The notes under the pieces: model-generated
Database searches by the model: none
What the model was told of the DNA's origin: nothing
What the model saw: the letters and a program-made list of their open reading frames with translations, nothing else
Made by a program: the position numbers and the translations under genes
NCBI GenBank assembly: GCA_042584405.1
Contig: JBHOSR010000001.1
Span: forward strand, 12,363-76,362
DNA length: 64,000 bases
Reading direction: 5' to 3'
Source: Bacteroidota bacterium
GTDB lineage: Bacteria > Bacteroidota > Bacteroidia > Bacteroidales > UBA12077
Part shown: piece by piece, positions 17,933 to 30,424 of the stretch
Layout of the letters: each line of letters begins with the position of its first letter
Position numbering within the stretch: the stretch's first letter is position 1

Positions 17933-17933
17933 G

Positions 17934-18008
17934 GGTGGGAGACCGGTCTCGAACCGGCGACCTCTGGAACCACAATCCAGCGCTCTAACCAACTGAGCTA
18001 CAACCACC
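17934..18008 (-). tRNA. tRNA-His (anticodon GUG) with encoded G-1
   Basis: Reverse complement: G-GTGGTTG-TA-GCTC-AGTTGGTTA-GAGC-G-CTGGA-TTGTGGT-TCCAG-AGGTC-GCCGG-TTCGAGA-CCGGT-CTCCCAC-C. Cloverleaf folds with anticodon GTG, and G-1 pairs with C73. CCA is not encoded. The acceptor stem has two adjacent mismatches (see findings). Confidence 0.85.
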
Positions 18009-25051: not shown

Positions 25052-27529
25052 ATGATAAAAATTATTATGAGTGATAAAATAAAAGAGAATAAATATAAAA
25101 ACATATTTTTTAGCGCAGACATAGAAAGTGATGGAGAGTTTATACCCTTAATTTCAGATGATGAAGATGATGTTGACCTTAAAAAATCTGAATTGCCAAA
25201 ACAATTGGCAATATTACCTTTAAGAAATACAGTTTTATTTCCAGGTGTAATTCTGCCAATTACGGTCGGAAGAGAAAAATCAATAAGTTTGGTAAATGAT
25301 ATTTATAAAAAGGATAAAATAATTGGTACTGTTGCACAGCTTAATCCTCAGGTAAACGAACCAGAAGAAGCTGACATGTATAGATTAGGCACTGTTGCTC
25401 AAATATTGAAGGTTTTAGAAATGCCTGATGGAAGTACTTCCGTTATTATCCAGGGAAGGCAGAGATTCGAAATGAATCAAATGGTTCAAGCAGATCCTTA
25501 CCATAAGGCAACTGTTACTTTATTAAAAGACAAGAAACCAAACGATAAAACCCGCGAGTTTGAAGCTATTGTAGGTTCACTTAAAGATTTGTCCTTAAGA
25601 ATTATAAAATTATCAAGCAATATTCCCCCAGAGGCTTCTTTTGCCGTTAAAAATATCGAGAATACTAAATTTCTAGTAAATTTTATTTGCTCAAATAGTG
25701 ATATTGACATTTCTGATAAGCAGAAGCTTCTCGAAATGGACAATTTAAAAGAAAGATCTATACGCTTATTAGAACATCTTACCAAGCAAATTCAAATGCT
25801 TGAGTTAAAAAACGATATTCAATCGAAAGTAAGAACAGATCTAGATCGTCAGCAAAGGGAATATTTGTTGCATCAACAAATGAAAACTATTCAGGATGAA
25901 TTAGGTGGAAATCCGATTGATCAGGAAATTGAAGATTTAAAGAAAAGAGCAAAACTTAAAAAATGGAGTAAGGAGGTTGCTGAAACTTTTGGAAAAGAAG
26001 TAGATAAATTAAACAGATTAAATCCTGCAACAGGCGAATATTCTGTTCAGTTAAATTACCTTCAAACACTTCTTGATTTACCATGGAATGAGTTTACCAA
26101 AGATAATTTTGATCTAAAAAGAGCTCAAAAAATTCTGGATGAGGATCATTTTGGTTTAGAAAAAGTTAAGGACAGGATTCTAGAATATCTAGCAGTACTT
26201 AAATTAAAAGGCGATTTAAAATCTCCTATTTTATGTTTGTATGGACCTCCGGGAGTTGGTAAAACATCTTTAGGGAAATCTATTGCTAAAGCACTTGACA
26301 GAAAGTATGTAAGAATGTCCTTAGGAGGATTGCATGATGAGGCTGAAATTCGAGGTCACAGAAAAACATATATTGGTGCAATGCCTGGAAGAATAATGCA
26401 GAATGTTAAAAAAGCAAAATCAGCAAATCCGGTTTTTATATTAGACGAAATTGATAAAGTGGGGAAAGACTTTCATGGAGATCCTGCTTCAGCACTTTTA
26501 GAGGTATTAGATCCAGAACAAAATAATGCTTTTCATGACAATTATTTGGAATTAGAATTTGATCTTTCAAATGTAATGTTCATTGCTACTGCCAATACTT
26601 TATCAACAATAAATCCGGCCTTACGCGACAGAATGGAATTGATTGATGTTACTGGTTATATTGTTGAGGAGAAAATTGAAATTGCAAAACGTCATTTAAT
26701 ACCAAAACAATTGGATGCACATGGTGTTGAAATGAAAAAGGTTTTATTTAGTAAAAAGGTTTTAGAATATATAATTGAAAATCACACTCGTGAATCTGGT
26801 GTTAGGACCATGGATAAAACTATTGCAAAAATCACTCGGAATCTTGCTAGAAAAATAGCACTTGAAGAAGAATTTAATAAATCATTATCTGTAAATGACA
26901 TTAAAGAAATTTTAGGGCCTCCGGAATTCTCTAAAGATAAATATCAGGGTAATGAATTTGCTGGAGTGGTTACTGGCCTGGCCTGGACAGCTGTTGGAGG
27001 TGAAATACTTTTTGTAGAAAGTAGCTTAAGTAAAGGAAAAGGAAAACTTACCTTAACCGGAAACTTGGGAGAAGTAATGAAAGAATCAGCTATAATTGCA
27101 CTTGAATATATTAAATCGCATGCCCAGGATTTACAAATAAGCGACGAAGCGTTTGAAAACTGGAATATCCATGTTCATGTTCCGGAAGGGGCAATTCCAA
27201 AAGATGGACCTTCAGCTGGAGTAACTATGGCAACATCGCTTGCTTCCATTTTTACTCAGCGTAAAGTGCGACAAAAGATTGCAATGACAGGCGAAATAAC
27301 ACTACGTGGTAAAGTGTTACCTGTTGGCGGAATTAAGGAAAAAATACTTGCTGCTAAACGAGCTAATATAACCGATATTATAATATCTGAGGATAATAAA
27401 AAAGATATTAGTAAGATAAAAGACATTTATTTAAAGGGTTTAAATTTCCACTATGTGAAAGAAATAATGGAGGTTTTAGAAATTGCCCTTTTAAAAGAAA
27501 AAGTCAAGAAATCTATAAAGGTCTCATAA
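25052..27529 (+). CDS. lon: ATP-dependent Lon protease (endopeptidase La)
   Basis: 825 aa. Walker [10 protein letters not shown], Walker B FILDEIDK, catalytic Ser context DGPSAGVTM. Alternative start at 25067. Confidence 0.95.
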
Positions 27530-27544
27530 AGATATTGAGTCTTT

Positions 27545-27577
27545 AAAAATCCGATCAATTAGATCGGATTTTTTTTT
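27545..27577 (+). terminator. Rho-independent terminator of lon
   Basis: AAAAATCCGATC-AATTA-GATCGGATTTTT stem followed by a long T-run. Confidence 0.85.
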
Positions 27578-27634
27578 CATAAGCAACCATTTTATCATCT
27601 GAAACATCTTCGAAATATAAACTTGATAAACAAT

Positions 27635-28063
27635 ATGAAAAAATACTTAATCTCAACAATTAATAAATTGATATTAGCGGTTTTAGCTTTTTTGGGATTT
27701 TCTTGTGATCCGGATGTGCCAGCAGTTGAATATGGAATGCCCCATGCTGATTTTAAAGCTTATGGTTCTATAATTGATGAAACAACTTTGCAGAAATTAT
27801 CGAATATCCAAGTTGTAATGGATGGTGATACTGTTTATAGTAACGCAAATGGAGAATACGAAATTCAAGTAACACGATTTCCTCAAACTCAAATATACAC
27901 TGTTGGATTTAAAGATGTAGATGGCGCCTTAAATGGATCTTACCTAGCCACTGATACCATTATAGATTTTTCAGATGTAAACTACACAGATGGCGATGGC
28001 ACATGGTATTCAGGCGAAAAATCAAAAGAAATAAATATAGAATTAAGTCCTGATGATAACTAA
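27635..28063 (+). CDS. Small putative lipoprotein partnered with a radical SAM/SPASM enzyme
   Basis: Signal peptide plus lipobox LAFLGFSCD. Beta-rich mature domain (GSIIDETTLQKLSNIQVVMDGDTVYSNANGEYEI). Its stop overlaps the ATG of the next gene (TAATG). The track ORF starts at a TTG at 27623. Confidence 0.7.
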   Translation: MKKYLISTINKLILAVLAFLGFSCDPDVPAVEYGMPHADFKAYGSIIDETTLQKLSNIQVVMDGDTVYSNANGEYEIQVTRFPQTQIYTVGFKDVDGALNGSYLATDTIIDFSDVNYTDGDGTWYSGEKSKEINIELSPDDN

Positions 28064-29142
28064 TGACAGATAAAATTCCGCTTAAGAAAAAAATAGCGTT
28101 GGAGCTATATCGTAAGTATAAAAAAAACACAACTAAACTCCACAAACTTTCTTATTTATTCTGGGAATGCACACTTAGATGCAATCTAAATTGTCGTCAT
28201 TGTGGGAGTGACTGTAAAACCAATCCAGAACAAAAAGATATGGCAGCAGAAGATTTTCTGAAAGCAATTGATCAAATAAAGCCTCATGTTAATCCTAACG
28301 AATTAATTATTGCAATTACAGGTGGTGAACCATTACTGCGAAGCGATTTAGAGATGGTTGGAAAAGAATTACACAATCGAGGTTTTCCATGGGGAATTGT
28401 AACAAATGGATACCTTCTTTCCAAGGACCGCTTGGTTTCATTATTAAAATCAGGACTAAGATCAATTACTATAAGTTTAGATGGACAAAAAGAATCGCAT
28501 AATTGGTTACGAGGTAATAATCAAAGTTATATTAAAGCATTAAATGCAATTGGTTTGGTTTCATCAGTTAAGGATTTAGTGTTTGATGTTGTATCTTGTG
28601 TTAATCAGAAAAATATTGATGATCTTCCAATACTAAAAGACTTGCTTGTTAATTTAGGAGTAAAAAATTGGCGATTATTTACAATATCTCCGATCGGAAG
28701 AGCAAAAGAAGATGATTTATTGCATCTTAATCCAGATCAATTTAAGGAGTTGTTTGAATATATAAAAACAATCAGAAAAGAAGGCGAAATTAAGGCAAGT
28801 TATGGTTGTGAAGGCTTTCTAGGAAGCTATGAAAGCGAGGTTCGCGATAATTTTTTCTTTTGCAGAGCAGGAGTAAATATAGCCTCCGTTTTAGTTGATG
28901 GTTCCATTTCTGCTTGCCCAAACTTACGTAGTAATTTTGTTCAAGGGAATATTTACGAAGATGATTTTATGGATATTTGGAACATAAAATTCAGTGAGAT
29001 GCGAAATAGAAAGTGGACATATAAAGGAGTTTGCGCAGATTGTAATCATTACAAATATTGTAACGGAAATGGCCTTCATTTATACACCGAAGATAAAGAA
29101 TTGACGTTTTGCCATTTAGAGAAACTCTTACATTCAAATTAA
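28063..29142 (+). CDS. Radical SAM enzyme with C-terminal SPASM-type auxiliary cluster domain
   Basis: 359 aa. CNLNCRHC (CxxxCxxC), GGEPLL, and C-terminal Cys motifs FFCRAG...ISACPN...CADCNHYKYCNGNG. Confidence 0.85.
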   Translation: MTDKIPLKKKIALELYRKYKKNTTKLHKLSYLFWECTLRCNLNCRHCGSDCKTNPEQKDMAAEDFLKAIDQIKPHVNPNELIIAITGGEPLLRSDLEMVGKELHNRGFPWGIVTNGYLLSKDRLVSLLKSGLRSITISLDGQKESHNWLRGNNQSYIKALNAIGLVSSVKDLVFDVVSCVNQKNIDDLPILKDLLVNLGVKNWRLFTISPIGRAKEDDLLHLNPDQFKELFEYIKTIRKEGEIKASYGCEGFLGSYESEVRDNFFFCRAGVNIASVLVDGSISACPNLRSNFVQGNIYEDDFMDIWNIKFSEMRNRKWTYKGVCADCNHYKYCNGNGLHLYTEDKELTFCHLEKLLHSN

Positions 29143-29234: not shown

Positions 29235-29771
29235 ATGAAAATGGGAGCTGGTTTATTTTGGGGATTATTACTAATTCTTATTGGTATTGGAATTGTAATT
29301 CGAGTTGTTTTTAACATCAATATCCCCGTCGTAAAATTTGTAATTGCATTCTTCTTTATTTTTATTGGAATTAAATTGCTAGTTGGGAATTTTAACTTTT
29401 GGGATAATCGTGGTGATGAAAATACAACCATATTTAGTGAAAGTAGAATAGATGGGCTAAGTGAGGATTTTAAAGAATACAATATAGTTTTTGGTAGTTC
29501 AGTTATTGATCTTAGAGATGTTGATTTAACTAACGGATCAAAAGAGATTAAAATCAATACTATATTTGGCGCTACAATTGTAAAAATCGATGAAAAAACT
29601 CCGGTAAGAATAAAAGCTGATGCAGCATTTGCTTCTGCTAAATTACCAAATGGCGATACTGCTGCTTTTGGTACTGGAAAATATGAAAGTGAAACTTTTT
29701 CTAAAGATTCAAATTATATTTATATTAAATGTGATGTTGTGTTTGGTGGCTTCGAAGTTAGAACGTATTAA
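29235..29771 (+). CDS. LiaF-like (DUF2154 / toast-rack type) membrane protein
   Basis: 178 aa. Two N-terminal TM helices. C-terminal repeats VFGSSVIDLRDVDL...IFGATIVKIDEKTPVRIKADAAFASAKL...DVVFGGFEV resemble the LiaF C-terminal domain. Confidence 0.55.
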   Translation: MKMGAGLFWGLLLILIGIGIVIRVVFNINIPVVKFVIAFFFIFIGIKLLVGNFNFWDNRGDENTTIFSESRIDGLSEDFKEYNIVFGSSVIDLRDVDLTNGSKEIKINTIFGATIVKIDEKTPVRIKADAAFASAKLPNGDTAAFGTGKYESETFSKDSNYIYIKCDVVFGGFEVRTY

Positions 29772-29875: not shown

Positions 29876-30424
29876 TTACTTTTTTATATAATCAAATGCT
29901 TTTGATATTGATTCTTTTACTTTACTAAAATTTTCTTCGACTCCACTTTTTATTTTTTGCCAATTTTCATCTTGTGATTCTTTTAATTCAACCAACTTAT
30001 CTTCAAGAACCTTTTTTTGTTTTTTAATATTTTCTATCTGATCTTTAAGTTTTAGCTTTAATTCTTCATTAGCGTTTTTAGCTTTAATTTCCAATTCATC
30101 AATTTTATTAGAAAAATCATCTATCCATATTTCTGCTTTATCAGAAAAACTTTGCTTATCAGCATTAACGATTTCAATAAATTCTTCAAATTCAGAAACA
30201 ATTACTTCCCACTGATCTTTGCTAGCATTTTTTAAGTCATCAAATTTTTTATCTAGTATTTCCCTTTGACTCTTCAGCGATTTAATTTTACGGTCCAGGT
30301 CCTCTAACCCACTTCTGGCACTGAGCTTTGCTTCAAGTGCTTTAGCTTCGAGTTCATATATCTTAGCTTTTAATTGTTTAATAATTATTTCCGCCCTACT
30401 TTCATATTCTTTTCTTTCTTTCAT
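29876..30424 (-). CDS. Hypothetical coiled-coil protein (K/E-rich)
   Basis: 182 aa, heptad-like K/E/L composition. No enzymatic motif recognised. Confidence 0.5.
   Translation of the reverse strand: MKERKEYESRAEIIIKQLKAKIYELEAKALEAKLSARSGLEDLDRKIKSLKSQREILDKKFDDLKNASKDQWEVIVSEFEEFIEIVNADKQSFSDKAEIWIDDFSNKIDELEIKAKNANEELKLKLKDQIENIKKQKKVLEDKLVELKESQDENWQKIKSGVEENFSKVKESISKAFDYIKK

What the first reader, a model, noticed from the sequence alone, without database searches (positions are those of the whole stretch)
27623..29142. Translationally coupled lipoprotein + radical SAM/SPASM pair with no known chemistry
Seen in sequence:
- A 142-146 aa ORF has a clear lipobox (LAFLGFSC|D) and a small beta-rich mature domain ending in an acidic D/G-rich tail (NYTDGDGTWYSGEK...SPDDN).
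- It ends in TAATG, so its stop overlaps the start codon of a 359-aa radical SAM protein.
- The radical SAM protein carries CNLNCRHC plus a C-terminal SPASM-like Cys array (CADCNHYKYC).

Established: SPASM-domain radical SAM enzymes (anSME, PqqE, AlbA and others) usually modify a peptide or protein encoded next door.

From memory, unverified: a model-only 'rSAM/lipoprotein system' pairing exists in HMM libraries, but I know of no described substrate, product or phenotype.

Inference: the lipoprotein is the substrate or obligate partner of the enzyme. That would be post-translational modification of an exported lipoprotein before export. This is the best candidate in the window for an uncharacterised system.
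Basis: partly seen in the sequence, partly recalled or inferred. Interest (0 to 1): 0.7.

Follow-up and report, generated by a model that had tools for sequence, protein, structure and literature searches.

The report
Catalogued, uncharacterised radical-SAM plus lipoprotein gene pair
This is a real, tightly coupled two-gene unit: a small exported lipoprotein and a radical-SAM enzyme that most likely modifies it before export. Annotation databases already list the pair, but nobody has worked out what the enzyme does.

Summary
A 142-aa lipoprotein gene (27635-28063) overlaps by TAATG a 359-aa radical SAM/SPASM gene (28063-29142).

Both proteins pass the curated cut-offs of an existing model-only pair, TIGR04134 'radical SAM-associated putative lipoprotein' and TIGR04133. 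NCBI already names these exact sequences that way. I found no paper on substrate, product or phenotype.

New evidence:
- The pairing is close to obligatory in both directions: 49/49 loci found through the enzyme, 53/54 found through the lipoprotein.
- No third gene is conserved nearby.
- Thirteen metagenome loci carry 3-4 tandem lipoprotein paralogues in front of one enzyme.
- 97% of family members carry an E-Y-G-x-P-x-A-x-F/Y motif a few residues after the lipobox cysteine.
- The enzyme has anSME-like architecture and no N-terminal peptide-recognition (RRE) domain.
- It never has the fourth cysteine of CX2CX5CX3C (0 of 206), which predicts a three-cysteine Aux I cluster as in CteB.

Best reading: an anSME-like, motif-directed modification of the unfolded pre-lipoprotein in the cytoplasm, before Sec export and lipidation. 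The chemistry is unknown. The family is already catalogued; the function is an open, directly testable question.

The parts
27545..27582 (+). Intrinsic-terminator-like hairpin plus T-run that ends the upstream lon gene. It marks the 5' boundary of the cassette's own transcription unit.
   Evidence: 12-bp stem, 5-nt loop, T-run. Lon was identified by Pfam.
27618..27625 (+). Candidate Bacteroidota-type -7 promoter box, TAAACTTG (consensus TAnnTTTG, one mismatch). Weak evidence.
   Evidence: It lies 10 nt upstream of the ATG at 27635 and overlaps the alternative TTG start. Inference only.
27635..28063 (+). Gene for the 142-aa radical-SAM-associated putative lipoprotein (TIGR04134), stop codon included.
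   Evidence: 92.7 bits, cut-off 39.8; a 100% identical NCBI protein already carries this name.
27635..27706 (+). Signal peptide with lipobox, residues 1-24 (MKKYLISTINKLILAVLAFLGFS-C24). Asp follows at +2 and +4, which resembles a Bacteroidota surface-export signal.
   Evidence: tgt at 27704-27706; predicted helix 2-20.: -1 is S/G/A in 95% of 282 homologues, and 72% have an acidic residue at +2..+5.
27728..27754 (+). Family signature motif E-Y-G-M-P-H-A-D-F (residues 32-40), the proposed recognition or modification site.
   Evidence: the motif is present in 307/317 family members, and 32 have 2-3 copies; it precedes each domain in the two-domain fusions P0165 and P0251, and is degenerate in one domain of P0222 and P0273; it is the only such motif in all six frames of the window.
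27743..28045 (+). Mature beta-sandwich domain (residues 37-137) of the transthyretin / CarboxypepD-regulatory type. It contains the D-V-D-G-x-x-N-G and G-D-G-x-W-Y-x-G-E motifs.
   Evidence: AF2 mean pLDDT 83.7, above 90 in the sandwich core. Foldseek hits to carboxypeptidase D domain II and transthyretin-like domains, E about 1e-4; sub-threshold CarbopepD_reg_2.
28061..28065 (+). TAATG stop/start overlap, implying translational coupling.
   Evidence: a 1- or 4-nt overlap in 31 of 49 related loci; 44 of 49 overlap or are separated by 22 nt or less.
28063..29142 (+). Gene for the 359-aa TIGR04133-family radical SAM/SPASM protein, stop codon included.
   Evidence: (562 bits, cut-off 425).
28180..28203 (+). 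CX3CX2C motif for the radical SAM [4Fe-4S] cluster (C40, C44, C47). An extra invariant C51 follows.
   Evidence: 206/206 conserved.
28807..29112 (+). SPASM region (C249 ... C350): C249, C267-x12-G-x4-C285, C324-x2-C327-x5-C333-x-G-N-G337-x-H339, C350. The fourth Cys of CX2CX5CX3C is replaced by Gly.
   Evidence: position 337 is G/A/S in 206/206, never C; it aligns with the CKGGC of anSME and the CEGGC of SuiB.

Best explanation
The locus is a self-contained, separately transcribed two-gene cassette of the catalogued but uncharacterised TIGR04134/TIGR04133 'rSAM/lipoprotein' system.

Proposed mechanism:
1. The two genes are co-translated. This is shown by the stop/start overlap and its conservation.
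2. The cytoplasmic three-cluster radical SAM/SPASM enzyme acts on the still unfolded pre-lipoprotein. It has no RRE leader-recognition domain and the same overall build as anSME. It would recognise a short linear element, the conserved N-terminal segment ending in E-Y-G-x-P-x-A-x-F/Y, 6-10 residues after the lipobox Cys. This step is inferred.
3. The 5'-deoxyadenosyl radical abstracts a hydrogen in or next to that motif. An Aux I cluster with only three Cys ligands takes part in substrate binding or oxidation. The product would be a small covalent change compatible with Sec export, such as a cross-link, oxidation or epimerisation. This step is inferred and the chemistry is unknown.
4. The modified protein is exported by Sec, lipidated at Cys24 and cleaved by signal peptidase II. 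In Bacteroidota it is probably displayed on the cell surface. This is inferred from the lipobox and the acidic +2..+5 residues.

The closest working analogy is anSME, which matures sulfatases before export. The pair is not a member of that family.
For: Identity of the pair:
- Both proteins exceed the curated NCBIfam cut-offs.
- The identical public proteins are already named this way.

Functional coupling:
- A lipoprotein gene lies directly upstream on the same strand in 49/49 loci found through the enzyme.
- The enzyme lies beside the lipoprotein in 53/54 informative loci found through the lipoprotein.
- Stop/start overlap is the rule.
- The pair persists in Treponema, where the enzyme still passes the TIGR04133 cut-off.
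- No third gene is shared by more than 5 of 50 loci.
- A terminator separates the pair from lon.

Substrate-like behaviour of the lipoprotein:
- One enzyme serves 2-4 tandem paralogues in many loci.
- In the arrays inspected, the paralogues have near-identical N-termini and divergent domains.
- The E-Y-G-x-P-x-A-x-F/Y motif is present in 97% of 317 members and duplicated in 32.
- It precedes each domain in two of the multidomain fusions examined.
- It is the only such motif in the window.
- The lipoprotein evolves much faster than the enzyme: 36% against 59% mean identity.

Enzyme anatomy:
- AF2 model, pLDDT 87.
- Foldseek top hits are the peptide or protein maturases SuiB, SkfB and anSME. anSME matches end to end, with TM about 0.7 normalised either way.
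- Alignments show that SuiB, SkfB and CteB carry about 70-100 extra N-terminal residues that this enzyme lacks.
- The SPASM Cys pattern lacks the Aux I ligand in 206/206 members.
- Published structures show that a three-Cys Aux I can bind substrate (PMC6231123, PMC10452713).

Topology: an oxygen-sensitive cytoplasmic Fe-S enzyme and an exported lipoprotein can interact directly only before export. This follows from established knowledge.
Against: - No experiment exists, and no modification has been observed.
- The mature protein has no Cys in 69% of members. It also lacks the Cys/Ser-x-Pro-x-Arg, Lys-Trp or similar target patterns of characterised SPASM enzymes.
- The E-Y-G-x-P motif could simply be the structural N-cap of the beta-sandwich, since it travels with the domain in fusions.
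- The best non-self NCBIfam hits include tetrapyrrole enzymes (AhbD, NirJ) as well as peptide maturases. All are far below cut-off.
- Conservation of the signal peptide (41% mean pairwise identity) is only marginally above that of the mature domain (38%).
- Near-identical signal peptides within arrays could reflect recent duplication rather than recognition.
- An invariant His339, Cys51 or Cys179 might supply the missing Aux I ligand.
Confidence: 0.5

Rival explanations
1. The conserved 'lipobox' cysteine is itself the reaction partner. The three-Cys Aux I would bind its thiolate, as CteB and PapB-type enzymes bind substrate Cys. The enzyme would then form a thioether between Cys24 and a carbon in the E-Y-G motif 6-10 residues away. 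Such a Cys could not be diacylglyceryl-modified, so the N-terminal hydrophobic segment would act as a leader or membrane anchor rather than a cleaved lipoprotein signal.
For: - The fourth Cys of CX2CX5CX3C is absent in 206/206 enzymes.
- A three-Cys Aux I with an open site is the hallmark of C-S bond-forming SPASM maturases.
- The lipobox Cys is the only Cys in 69% of substrates, and its distance to the Tyr is narrowly distributed, mostly 6-10 residues.
- Extra Cys residues recur directly before E-Y-G in about 9% of members, and Treponema versions read Q-A-C-Y-G.
Against: - The N-termini are textbook signal peptidase II signals in two phyla: a K/R-rich n-region, a hydrophobic helix, and S/G/A at -1 in 95%.
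- Acidic residues follow the Cys, as in Bacteroidota surface lipoproteins.
- The Cys-to-Tyr spacing still varies from 2 to 27 residues.
- The enzyme has no RRE, unlike the sacti- and ranthipeptide synthases matched here (SkfB, CteB), which carry about 70-100 extra N-terminal residues.
- It scores 75.7 bits against a cut-off of 340 for PapB.
- An invariant His339 two residues after Gly337 could be the fourth ligand.
Confidence: 0.12
2. The lipoprotein is not the substrate. The enzyme would make or alter a small molecule, for example a tetrapyrrole-like or other cofactor, or would modify an unlinked protein. The lipoprotein would bind, carry or use that product outside the cytoplasm.
For: - The best non-self NCBIfam hits include AhbD (133 bits), NirJ2, AhbC and NirJ, which act on tetrapyrroles. 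BlsE, a nucleoside decarboxylase, is among the top PDB matches.
- The lipoprotein is a folded beta-sandwich domain of about 100 residues, not a short peptide.
- Transthyretin-like folds often bind ligands. This point rests on general knowledge, not on a test here.
Against: - All those hits are far below cut-off (133 against 500) and mostly cover only the common radical SAM core.
- No transporter, other biosynthetic gene or any third gene is conserved near the pair.
- One enzyme is preceded by up to four divergent lipoprotein paralogues.
- Translational coupling is conserved.
- The pair is nearly obligatory in both directions.
Confidence: 0.2
3. The adjacency is only regulatory or historical, with no shared biochemical function.
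For: None beyond the lack of experimental data. One orphan lipoprotein gene has no enzyme within 3 kb (L063).
Against: - 49/49 and 53/54 co-occurrence across two phyla in otherwise unrelated genomic contexts.
- Conserved stop/start overlap.
Confidence: 0.03

Closest known systems
TIGR04133 / TIGR04134 'rSAM/lipoprotein system' (TIGRFAMs/NCBIfam hypothetical-equivalog models; JGI name 'radical SAM enzyme (rSAM/lipoprotein system)')
   Same: Both window proteins exceed the curated cut-offs. The identical sequences are already so named at NCBI. The defining adjacency is present.
   Different: Nothing differs; this is an ordinary member. The family itself has no described substrate site, product or phenotype in the literature searched.
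Anaerobic sulfatase-maturating enzyme (anSME; PDB 4K36-4K39)
   Same: - Same size and architecture: radical SAM core plus a full SPASM domain, with no RRE.
- End-to-end structural match, TM about 0.7, and an end-to-end profile alignment, 38-348 against 13-341.
- anSME also acts on a whole protein destined for export, through a short linear motif, before export (established knowledge).
- The lipoprotein motif G-[TS]-P-[SH]-A loosely echoes the sulfatase C/S-x-P-x-R.
   Different: - Only remote sequence similarity (E 4e-10 with a profile), and the anSME model is not among the top 25 NCBIfam hits.
- The fourth Cys of CX2CX5CX3C, an Aux I ligand in anSME, is Gly here.
- The residue after the second SPASM Cys is Pro where anSME has Asp. 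From memory, that Asp is the proposed catalytic base.
- The partner has Gly where sulfatases have the target Cys/Ser, and it has no Arg.
- No sulfatase lies nearby.
Sacti-/ranthipeptide thioether synthases with a three-Cys Aux I (CteB, PapB; also AlbA)
   Same: The SPASM domain has only seven Cys for two auxiliary clusters. That predicts an Aux I with an open or non-Cys site, the feature that binds substrate Cys in CteB. CteB is among the sequence-level PDB hits.
   Different: - No N-terminal RRE domain.
- PapB model 75.7 bits against 340, StsB 74 against 625.
- The substrate is a 140-aa signal-peptide protein with usually a single Cys, not a Cys-rich short peptide.
SuiB (streptide Lys-Trp cross-linking) and SkfB
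   Same: Best Foldseek hits (E 3.5e-16 and 4e-15) and the best PDB sequence hit (SkfB).
   Different: - Both carry an RRE and act on short leader-containing peptides.
- SuiB has a fully ligated Aux I that includes the Cys missing here.
- SkfB has a Twitch domain, not a SPASM domain.
QhpD/QhpC (radical SAM thioether cross-linking of the small subunit of quinohemoprotein amine dehydrogenase before export). Comparison from memory, not tested.
   Same: A SPASM enzyme that modifies a protein-sized substrate in the cytoplasm, which is then exported.
   Different: The Qhp system has further conserved genes (dehydrogenase subunits, exporter/peptidase) and a multi-Cys substrate. Neither is present here.

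Membership tests
TIGR04133 (rSAM_w_lipo) | Full-length HMM score at or above the curated cut-off (425 bits) | tested here: met
   562 bits, residues 7-355 on profile positions 1-349 of 350.
TIGR04133 (rSAM_w_lipo) | Radical SAM CX3CX2C motif plus a C-terminal SPASM domain | tested here: met
   C40/C44/C47. Pfam Radical_SAM 66 bits and SPASM 39.5 bits.
TIGR04133 (rSAM_w_lipo) | Encoded next to a TIGR04134 lipoprotein | tested here: met
   TAATG overlap in the window. The same arrangement holds in 49/49 related loci.
TIGR04134 (lipo_with_rSAM) | HMM score at or above the curated cut-off (39.8 bits) | tested here: met
   92.7 bits.
TIGR04134 (lipo_with_rSAM) | N-terminal lipoprotein-type signal peptide with a lipobox Cys | tested here: met
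   MKK..., hydrophobic helix 2-20, FS-C24. Family-wide, -1 is S/G/A in 95%. Actual lipidation cannot be tested here.
Bacterial lipoprotein (Lgt/LspA substrate) | Diacylglyceryl modification of the Cys and cleavage by signal peptidase II | not testable with these tools
   Sequence features only.
anSME (anaerobic sulfatase-maturating enzyme) | Family-level sequence membership | tested here: not met
   No anSME model among the best 25 NCBIfam hits, all of which other than TIGR04133 are far below cut-off. The PDB profile match is only E 4e-10.
anSME (anaerobic sulfatase-maturating enzyme) | Eight Cys that fully ligate Aux I and Aux II, including the fourth Cys of CX2CX5CX3C | tested here: not met
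   That position is Gly337, and G/A/S in 206/206 family members.
anSME (anaerobic sulfatase-maturating enzyme) | Substrate carrying (C/S)-x-(P/A)-x-R in a sulfatase | tested here: not met
   The partner has Y-G-x-P-x-A, with no Cys/Ser at the target position and no Arg. It has no sulfatase domain.
RiPP maturases with an RRE (SuiB, CteB, SkfB, PqqE+PqqD type) | N-terminal RiPP recognition element (PqqD-like domain) | tested here: not met
   Only 39 residues precede the first Cys (C40) of CX3CX2C. Alignments start at residue 83-118 of CteB, SkfB and SuiB. AF2 shows a single helix, residues 7-23.
Ranthipeptide/sactipeptide synthases (PapB, StsB, CteB) | HMM membership | tested here: not met
   PapB 75.7 against 340; StsB 74.1 against 625.
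Ranthipeptide/sactipeptide synthases (PapB, StsB, CteB) | Aux I with three Cys ligands and an open site for substrate Cys | tested here: inconclusive
   The sequence predicts three Cys (C249, C267, C285). Invariant H339, C51 or C179 could substitute. Spectroscopy or a structure is needed.
AhbD / NirJ tetrapyrrole radical SAM enzymes | HMM membership | tested here: not met
   AhbD 133 against 500; NirJ2 124 against 500; NirJ 111 against 515.
Prokaryotic viperin (defence) | HMM membership; no SPASM domain | tested here: not met
   NCBIfam 75 against 180. The PADLOC pVip hit of 76 bits covers the radical SAM core only. A SPASM domain is present.

The most novel reading that the evidence does not exclude
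The TIGR04133 enzymes may install a previously undescribed, motif-directed radical modification on a folded-domain lipoprotein family rather than on a short peptide. Candidate chemistries are a C-S, C-C or C-O cross-link, an oxidation or an epimerisation at the E-Y-G-x-P-x-A-x-F/Y element. The enzyme would do this without an RRE, using a three-Cys Aux I. In gut and rumen Bacteroidales one enzyme would mature arrays of up to four divergent surface lipoproteins. In the most radical version the invariant 'lipobox' Cys is itself the cross-link partner.
Probability: 0.35. Interest if true: 0.75.

Novelty: already known. Interest (0 to 1): 0.5.

Why it matters
Radical SAM/SPASM enzymes are a main source of new post-translational chemistry, and most characterised ones act on short peptides. 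anSME is the standard example that acts on a whole protein; from memory, QhpD is another.

This pair is abundant. At 50% identity there are at least 1007 lipoprotein clusters with E <= 1e-10, and about 7900 proteins matched the enzyme at E <= 1e-10, a set that may include other SPASM families. It occurs in anaerobic Bacteroidales, including gut and rumen samples, and in Treponema.

It is also minimal: two genes with no accessory factors. That makes it one of the easiest orphan radical SAM systems to reconstitute.

Identifying the modification would define a new step in the biogenesis of a widespread family of probably surface-exposed lipoproteins. It would also test whether an RRE-less SPASM enzyme with a three-Cys Aux I recognises a protein through a short motif. 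For annotating this window, however, nothing new needs to be claimed. The genes are ordinary members of an already named family.

Tried and rejected
- Literature. I searched for the TIGR accessions and model names, and for combinations of radical SAM, SPASM, lipoprotein, Bacteroid*, maturase and lipobox. The only hit for 'TIGR04134' is a typo for the T9SS type-B C-terminal-domain model. The graspetide paper was irrelevant. Haft & Basu 2011 and the anSME structure paper are not held, so the anSME residue numbers and the Asp catalytic base rest on memory plus the alignment.
- ChlB/ChlA, a 2025 PDB entry among the Foldseek hits: no paper found.
- PDB sequence search with the lipoprotein: nothing meaningful.
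- Foldseek with the lipoprotein gives only a generic transthyretin / CarboxypepD-regulatory / CnaB-like beta-sandwich (E about 1e-4, TM 0.4-0.5). It gives no functional lead.
- PADLOC: only generic radical SAM core similarity to viperins. The defence-system reading is rejected.
- Third conserved gene (transporter, protease, second enzyme): none found. Lon, the LiaF-like gene, CoaD and the others are local housekeeping synteny shared only with the nearest relatives.
- Signal peptide more conserved than the mature domain, as evidence for a leader role: the difference is too small to use (0.41 against 0.38).
- Rfam and tRNA scans found nothing in the locus.
- A complex (multimer) prediction and distance measurements around Aux I in the AF2 model could not be done with the tools offered.
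Full report
**1. What is in the sequence**

Two ORFs lie on the + strand.
- The first runs from 27623 (TTG, 146 aa) or 27635 (ATG, 142 aa) to 28063. It begins MKKYLISTINKLILAVLAFLGFSCDPD...
- The second runs 28063-29142 (359 aa). It contains CNLNCRHC (28180-28203) and, near the C-terminus, CADCNHYKYC.
- The TAA stop of the first gene shares its last A with the ATG of the second (TAATG, 28061-28065).
- Upstream, the lon gene (25052-27529; Pfam) ends in a 12-bp hairpin plus T-run at 27545-27582. The pair therefore has its own transcription start.
- A one-mismatch Bacteroidota -7 box, TAAACTTG, at 27618-27625 and alignment with homologues favour the ATG at 27635.

**2. Family assignment**

- NCBIfam places the small protein in TIGR04134 'radical SAM-associated putative lipoprotein' (92.7 bits, cut-off 39.8).
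- It places the enzyme in TIGR04133 'radical SAM/SPASM protein' (562 bits, cut-off 425). Both models are of type hypothetical equivalog.
- Every other listed model is far below its cut-off: TIGR04053 140/395, AhbD 133/500, NirJ2 124/500, mycofactocin MftC 102/265, PapB 76/340, PqqE 71/381, viperin 75/180. No anSME model is among the best 25.
- Pfam sees Radical_SAM and SPASM in the enzyme, and a sub-threshold CarboxypepD_reg-like hit in the lipoprotein.
- The identical sequences exist at NCBI under exactly these names, from a 'Bacteroidota bacterium' contig of 91 kb. JGI uses 'rSAM/lipoprotein system'.

**3. Literature**

Full-text searches found nothing on the pair.
- Terms searched: the accession numbers, the model names, and combinations of radical SAM, SPASM, lipoprotein, lipobox, maturase and Bacteroid*.
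- The single hit for 'TIGR04134' is a misprint for the type-B T9SS C-terminal-domain model.
- Haft & Basu 2011, where the SPASM partner families were introduced, is not in the held library.

Within what I could search, the chemistry is unknown.

**4. Is the pairing real?**

*From the enzyme side.* A scan of one genome per species returned 50 loci. They come from Bacteroidales, Prolixibacteraceae and Marinilabiliaceae, Paludibacteraceae, Prevotella and Bacteroidaceae MAGs, one 'Chlorobiota' MAG and five Treponema MAGs.
- An HMM of the lipoprotein finds a hit directly upstream on the same strand in all 49 loci that contain upstream DNA.
- In 31 of the 49 the genes overlap by 1 or 4 nt.
- In 44 of 49 they overlap or are separated by 22 nt or less.

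*From the lipoprotein side.* A metagenome scan returned 62 loci.
- Of the 54 that are informative, 53 carry a TIGR04133-like gene beside the lipoprotein gene or genes.
- The exception, L063, has a bona fide TIGR04134 protein (119 bits) with no enzyme within 3 kb.
- The Treponema enzyme still passes the TIGR04133 cut-off (454 bits). Its neighbour falls just below the TIGR04134 cut-off (34.3 bits).

*Neighbourhood.* Clustering all neighbouring ORFs shows that no third gene is shared by more than 5 of 50 loci. In the window the neighbours are housekeeping genes: Lon, a sugar nucleotidyltransferase, a LiaF-like membrane protein, CoaD, a thioredoxin-fold protein and a Nudix protein. The module is therefore a self-sufficient two-gene cassette dropped into unrelated contexts.

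**5. Features that make the lipoprotein look like a substrate**

(a) *Copy number.*
- The closest relative (GCA_042579485.1, syntenic with the window) has two tandem lipoprotein genes before one enzyme.
- Five genome loci have two copies.
- Thirteen metagenome loci, at least one labelled human gut, have three or four.

(b) *Paralogue arrays.* Within the arrays inspected, the signal peptides are almost identical (MKKLNRKLIRGTNWALAGLLSLLGFSxC). The first roughly 25 mature residues are conserved, while the rest of the domain diverges. Some paralogues even lose the D-x-D-G-x-x-N-G motif.

(c) *A family signature motif.*
- Across 317 family sequences the signature is x-E-Y-G-[TSVMAC]-P-[SHNYT]-A-x-[FY]. 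It is present in 307 of them.
- Most of the rest are near-misses, and two are truncated fragments that lack the N-terminus.
- Thirty-two proteins have two or three copies in tandem, for example DEYGAPMPEYGAPSAEF.
- In two-domain fusions such as P0165 and P0251 the motif precedes each domain. In P0222 and P0273 it is degenerate before one domain.
- The motif occurs only once in all six reading frames of the 64-kb window.

(d) *Evolutionary rate.* The lipoprotein evolves much faster than the enzyme. Mean identity to the window proteins is 36% against 59%.

(e) *Signal-peptide features.*
- The residue at -1 is S/G/A in 95% of 282 sequences.
- 72% have at least one Asp or Glu at +2..+5. This resembles the Bacteroidota lipoprotein surface-export signal (comparison from memory).
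- The distance from the Cys to the Tyr is mostly 6-10 residues.
- 69% have no other Cys.

The family is large. There are 2358 clusters at 50% identity with E <= 1e-3 and 1007 with E <= 1e-10. Nearly all members are 140-165 aa.

**6. Structures**

- The AF2 model of the lipoprotein has mean pLDDT 83.7. It shows an N-terminal helix (the signal peptide), a low-confidence linker that includes E-Y-G-M-P, and a confident beta-sandwich over residues 37-137.
- Foldseek gives only generic transthyretin / carboxypeptidase-D-regulatory / CnaB-type sandwiches (E about 1e-4).
- The AF2 model of the enzyme has pLDDT 87.3 and pTM 0.87. It shows a partial TIM barrel plus a SPASM domain.
- Its best PDB matches are SuiB, SkfB, BlsE, anSME, PqqE and ChlB.
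- anSME matches end to end, with TM about 0.7 normalised either way.
- Sequence alignments start at residue 83-118 of CteB, SkfB and SuiB, but at residue 13 of anSME.
- The enzyme therefore lacks the RRE leader-binding domain of RiPP maturases and shares the compact build of anSME.

**7. Cluster ligands**

In 206 family members the following residues are conserved.

| Role | Residues | Conservation |
|---|---|---|
| Radical SAM cluster | C40, C44, C47 | invariant |
| SPASM cysteines | C249, C267, C285, C324, C327, C333, C350 | invariant, apart from one sequence at C267 |
| Extra residues | C51, H339 | invariant |
| Extra residue | C179 | 205 of 206 |
| Fourth Cys position of CX2CX5CX3C | Gly 199, Ala 5, Ser 2 | never Cys |

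- The Gly position aligns with the last Cys of anSME's CKGGC and SuiB's CEGGC.
- By analogy with AhbD, where Aux I is assigned to C223, C256, C274 and C324, and with anSME and SuiB, which have a four-Cys Aux I, this Cys ligates Aux I. CteB has a three-Cys Aux I whose open site binds a substrate Cys, and this is linked to C-S bond formation (PMC6231123 and PMC10452713).
- The family is therefore predicted to have a three-Cys Aux I, unless H339, C51 or C179 substitutes. This is a sequence-based inference.
- The residue after C285 is Pro where anSME has Asp. From memory, that Asp is the proposed catalytic base.

**8. Most likely mechanism**

*Shown:*
- two co-translated genes;
- near-obligate pairing in two phyla;
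- no accessory genes;
- a three-cluster-type SPASM enzyme without an RRE;
- a signal peptidase II-type signal;
- a conserved short motif just after the lipobox.

*Inferred:* the enzyme acts in the cytoplasm on the nascent, unfolded pre-lipoprotein. It recognises the conserved N-terminal segment rather than a leader bound by an RRE. It introduces a small covalent change in or next to E-Y-G-x-P-x-A-x-F/Y. The protein is then exported by Sec, lipidated and, in Bacteroidota, probably surface-exposed.

*Topology argument:* an oxygen-labile cytoplasmic enzyme and an exported lipoprotein can meet only before export. No exporter for a small-molecule product is conserved.

The working analogy is anSME acting on sulfatases. 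The partial resemblance of G-[TS]-P-[SH]-A to the sulfatase C/S-x-P-x-R box is noted only as speculation. I put this model at about 0.5.

**9. Rivals**

- *Thioether to the 'lipobox' Cys (0.12).* The three-Cys Aux I, the single conserved Cys, the narrow Cys-Tyr spacing and the recurrent extra Cys before E-Y-G (9%; C-Y-G in Treponema) make it conceivable that the Cys is the thioether donor. That would be incompatible with lipidation. The textbook lipoprotein signals in two phyla argue against it.
- *Small-molecule or unlinked-protein substrate, with the lipoprotein as user (0.2).* This is supported only by sub-threshold AhbD, NirJ and BlsE similarity and by the folded nature of the partner. The paralogue arrays, the translational coupling and the lack of any other conserved gene argue against it.
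- *Mere adjacency (0.03).*

**10. Comparison and novelty**

- *Membership:* TIGR04133 and TIGR04134 are both met.
- *Not a member of:* anSME, the sacti-/ranthipeptide synthases, PqqE, MftC, AhbD/NirJ or viperin. In each case the HMM scores are far below cut-off, and for anSME and the RRE-containing maturases defining features are tested and not met.
- *What it works like:* most like anSME in build and protein-level, pre-export logic. Its auxiliary-cluster ligand set is reminiscent of CteB and PapB.

As an object the pair is already known: it is catalogued and named in this very genome's public annotation. As biology it is uncharacterised.

Points I did not find stated in the literature available to me:
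- bidirectional pairing statistics;
- two-gene self-sufficiency;
- arrays of up to four paralogues;
- the E-Y-G-x-P-x-A-x-F/Y signature;
- the lack of an RRE;
- the universally missing Aux I Cys.

**11. Verdict**

Novelty class: already known. Interest is about 0.5. The locus is unsurprising to a specialist, but it is a clean, minimal, abundant orphan radical SAM system whose chemistry could be solved with a two-gene co-expression and mass spectrometry.

Noticed in passing
L051 5457-7517 (GCA_042579485.1, contig JBHOUB010000009.1): The closest relative is fully syntenic with the window: aminotransferase, L31, nucleotidyltransferase, Lon, the cassette, then the LiaF-like gene. It carries two tandem lipoprotein genes (143 and 146 aa) before the enzyme, where the window has one.
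   Followed up: partly
L065 2977-6024; similar arrays in L067, L069, L074, L080, L094 (four copies) and L056, L072, L073, L078, L079, L081, L085 (three copies): Metagenome contigs, at least one labelled human gut (L103 is a related single-copy locus), carry arrays of 3-4 head-to-tail TIGR04134 paralogues before a single TIGR04133 gene. In the arrays inspected (L065, L067, L056) the signal peptides are nearly identical and the beta-sandwich domains divergent. Some paralogues have lost the D-x-D-G-x-x-N-G motif.
   Followed up: partly
L063 2959-3498: This is the only informative locus where a genuine TIGR04134 lipoprotein (119 bits) has no radical SAM gene within 3 kb on either side. Its neighbours are other lipoprotein-like ORFs. 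The enzyme may be elsewhere in that genome, or the gene may be an orphan paralogue.
   Followed up: partly
L101 439-3429; L086 2905-3741; L104 2827-3864; proteins P0165, P0222, P0251, P0273, P0274: Two- and three-domain fusion versions of the lipoprotein exist. In L101 a second, single-domain lipoprotein gene lies downstream of the enzyme instead of upstream.
   Followed up: partly
L049 5503-6522; L068 4301-5665; L102 3419-4511; L113 3732-5066: In these loci the lipoprotein and/or radical SAM reading frames are split into several ORFs. These may be pseudogenes or frameshift errors in the assemblies; I did not resolve which.
   Followed up: no
window 29235-29771 (+): A 178-aa membrane protein with a borderline LiaF-like C-terminal domain (28.7 bits, cut-off 29) lies immediately downstream of the cassette. 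It is shared only with the nearest relatives (3 loci), so it is probably not part of the system.
   Followed up: partly
window 28213-28215 (Cys51), 28597-28599 (Cys179), 29077-29079 (His339) in the radical SAM gene: Two Cys residues outside the canonical cluster motifs (C51 invariant, C179 in 205 of 206) and one invariant His two residues after the missing Aux I Cys. They are candidates for a substitute cluster ligand or, for C179 in the barrel, an H-atom donor as in radical SAM epimerases (that comparison is from memory).
   Followed up: no
window 17933-18007 (-): A tRNA-His (GTG) gene, the only Rfam or ARAGORN hit in the 64-kb window.
   Followed up: no
window 29876-30424 (-): A 182-aa Lys/Glu-rich protein of coiled-coil appearance (judged from the sequence) with no Pfam match. 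It is shared with only one related locus.
   Followed up: no
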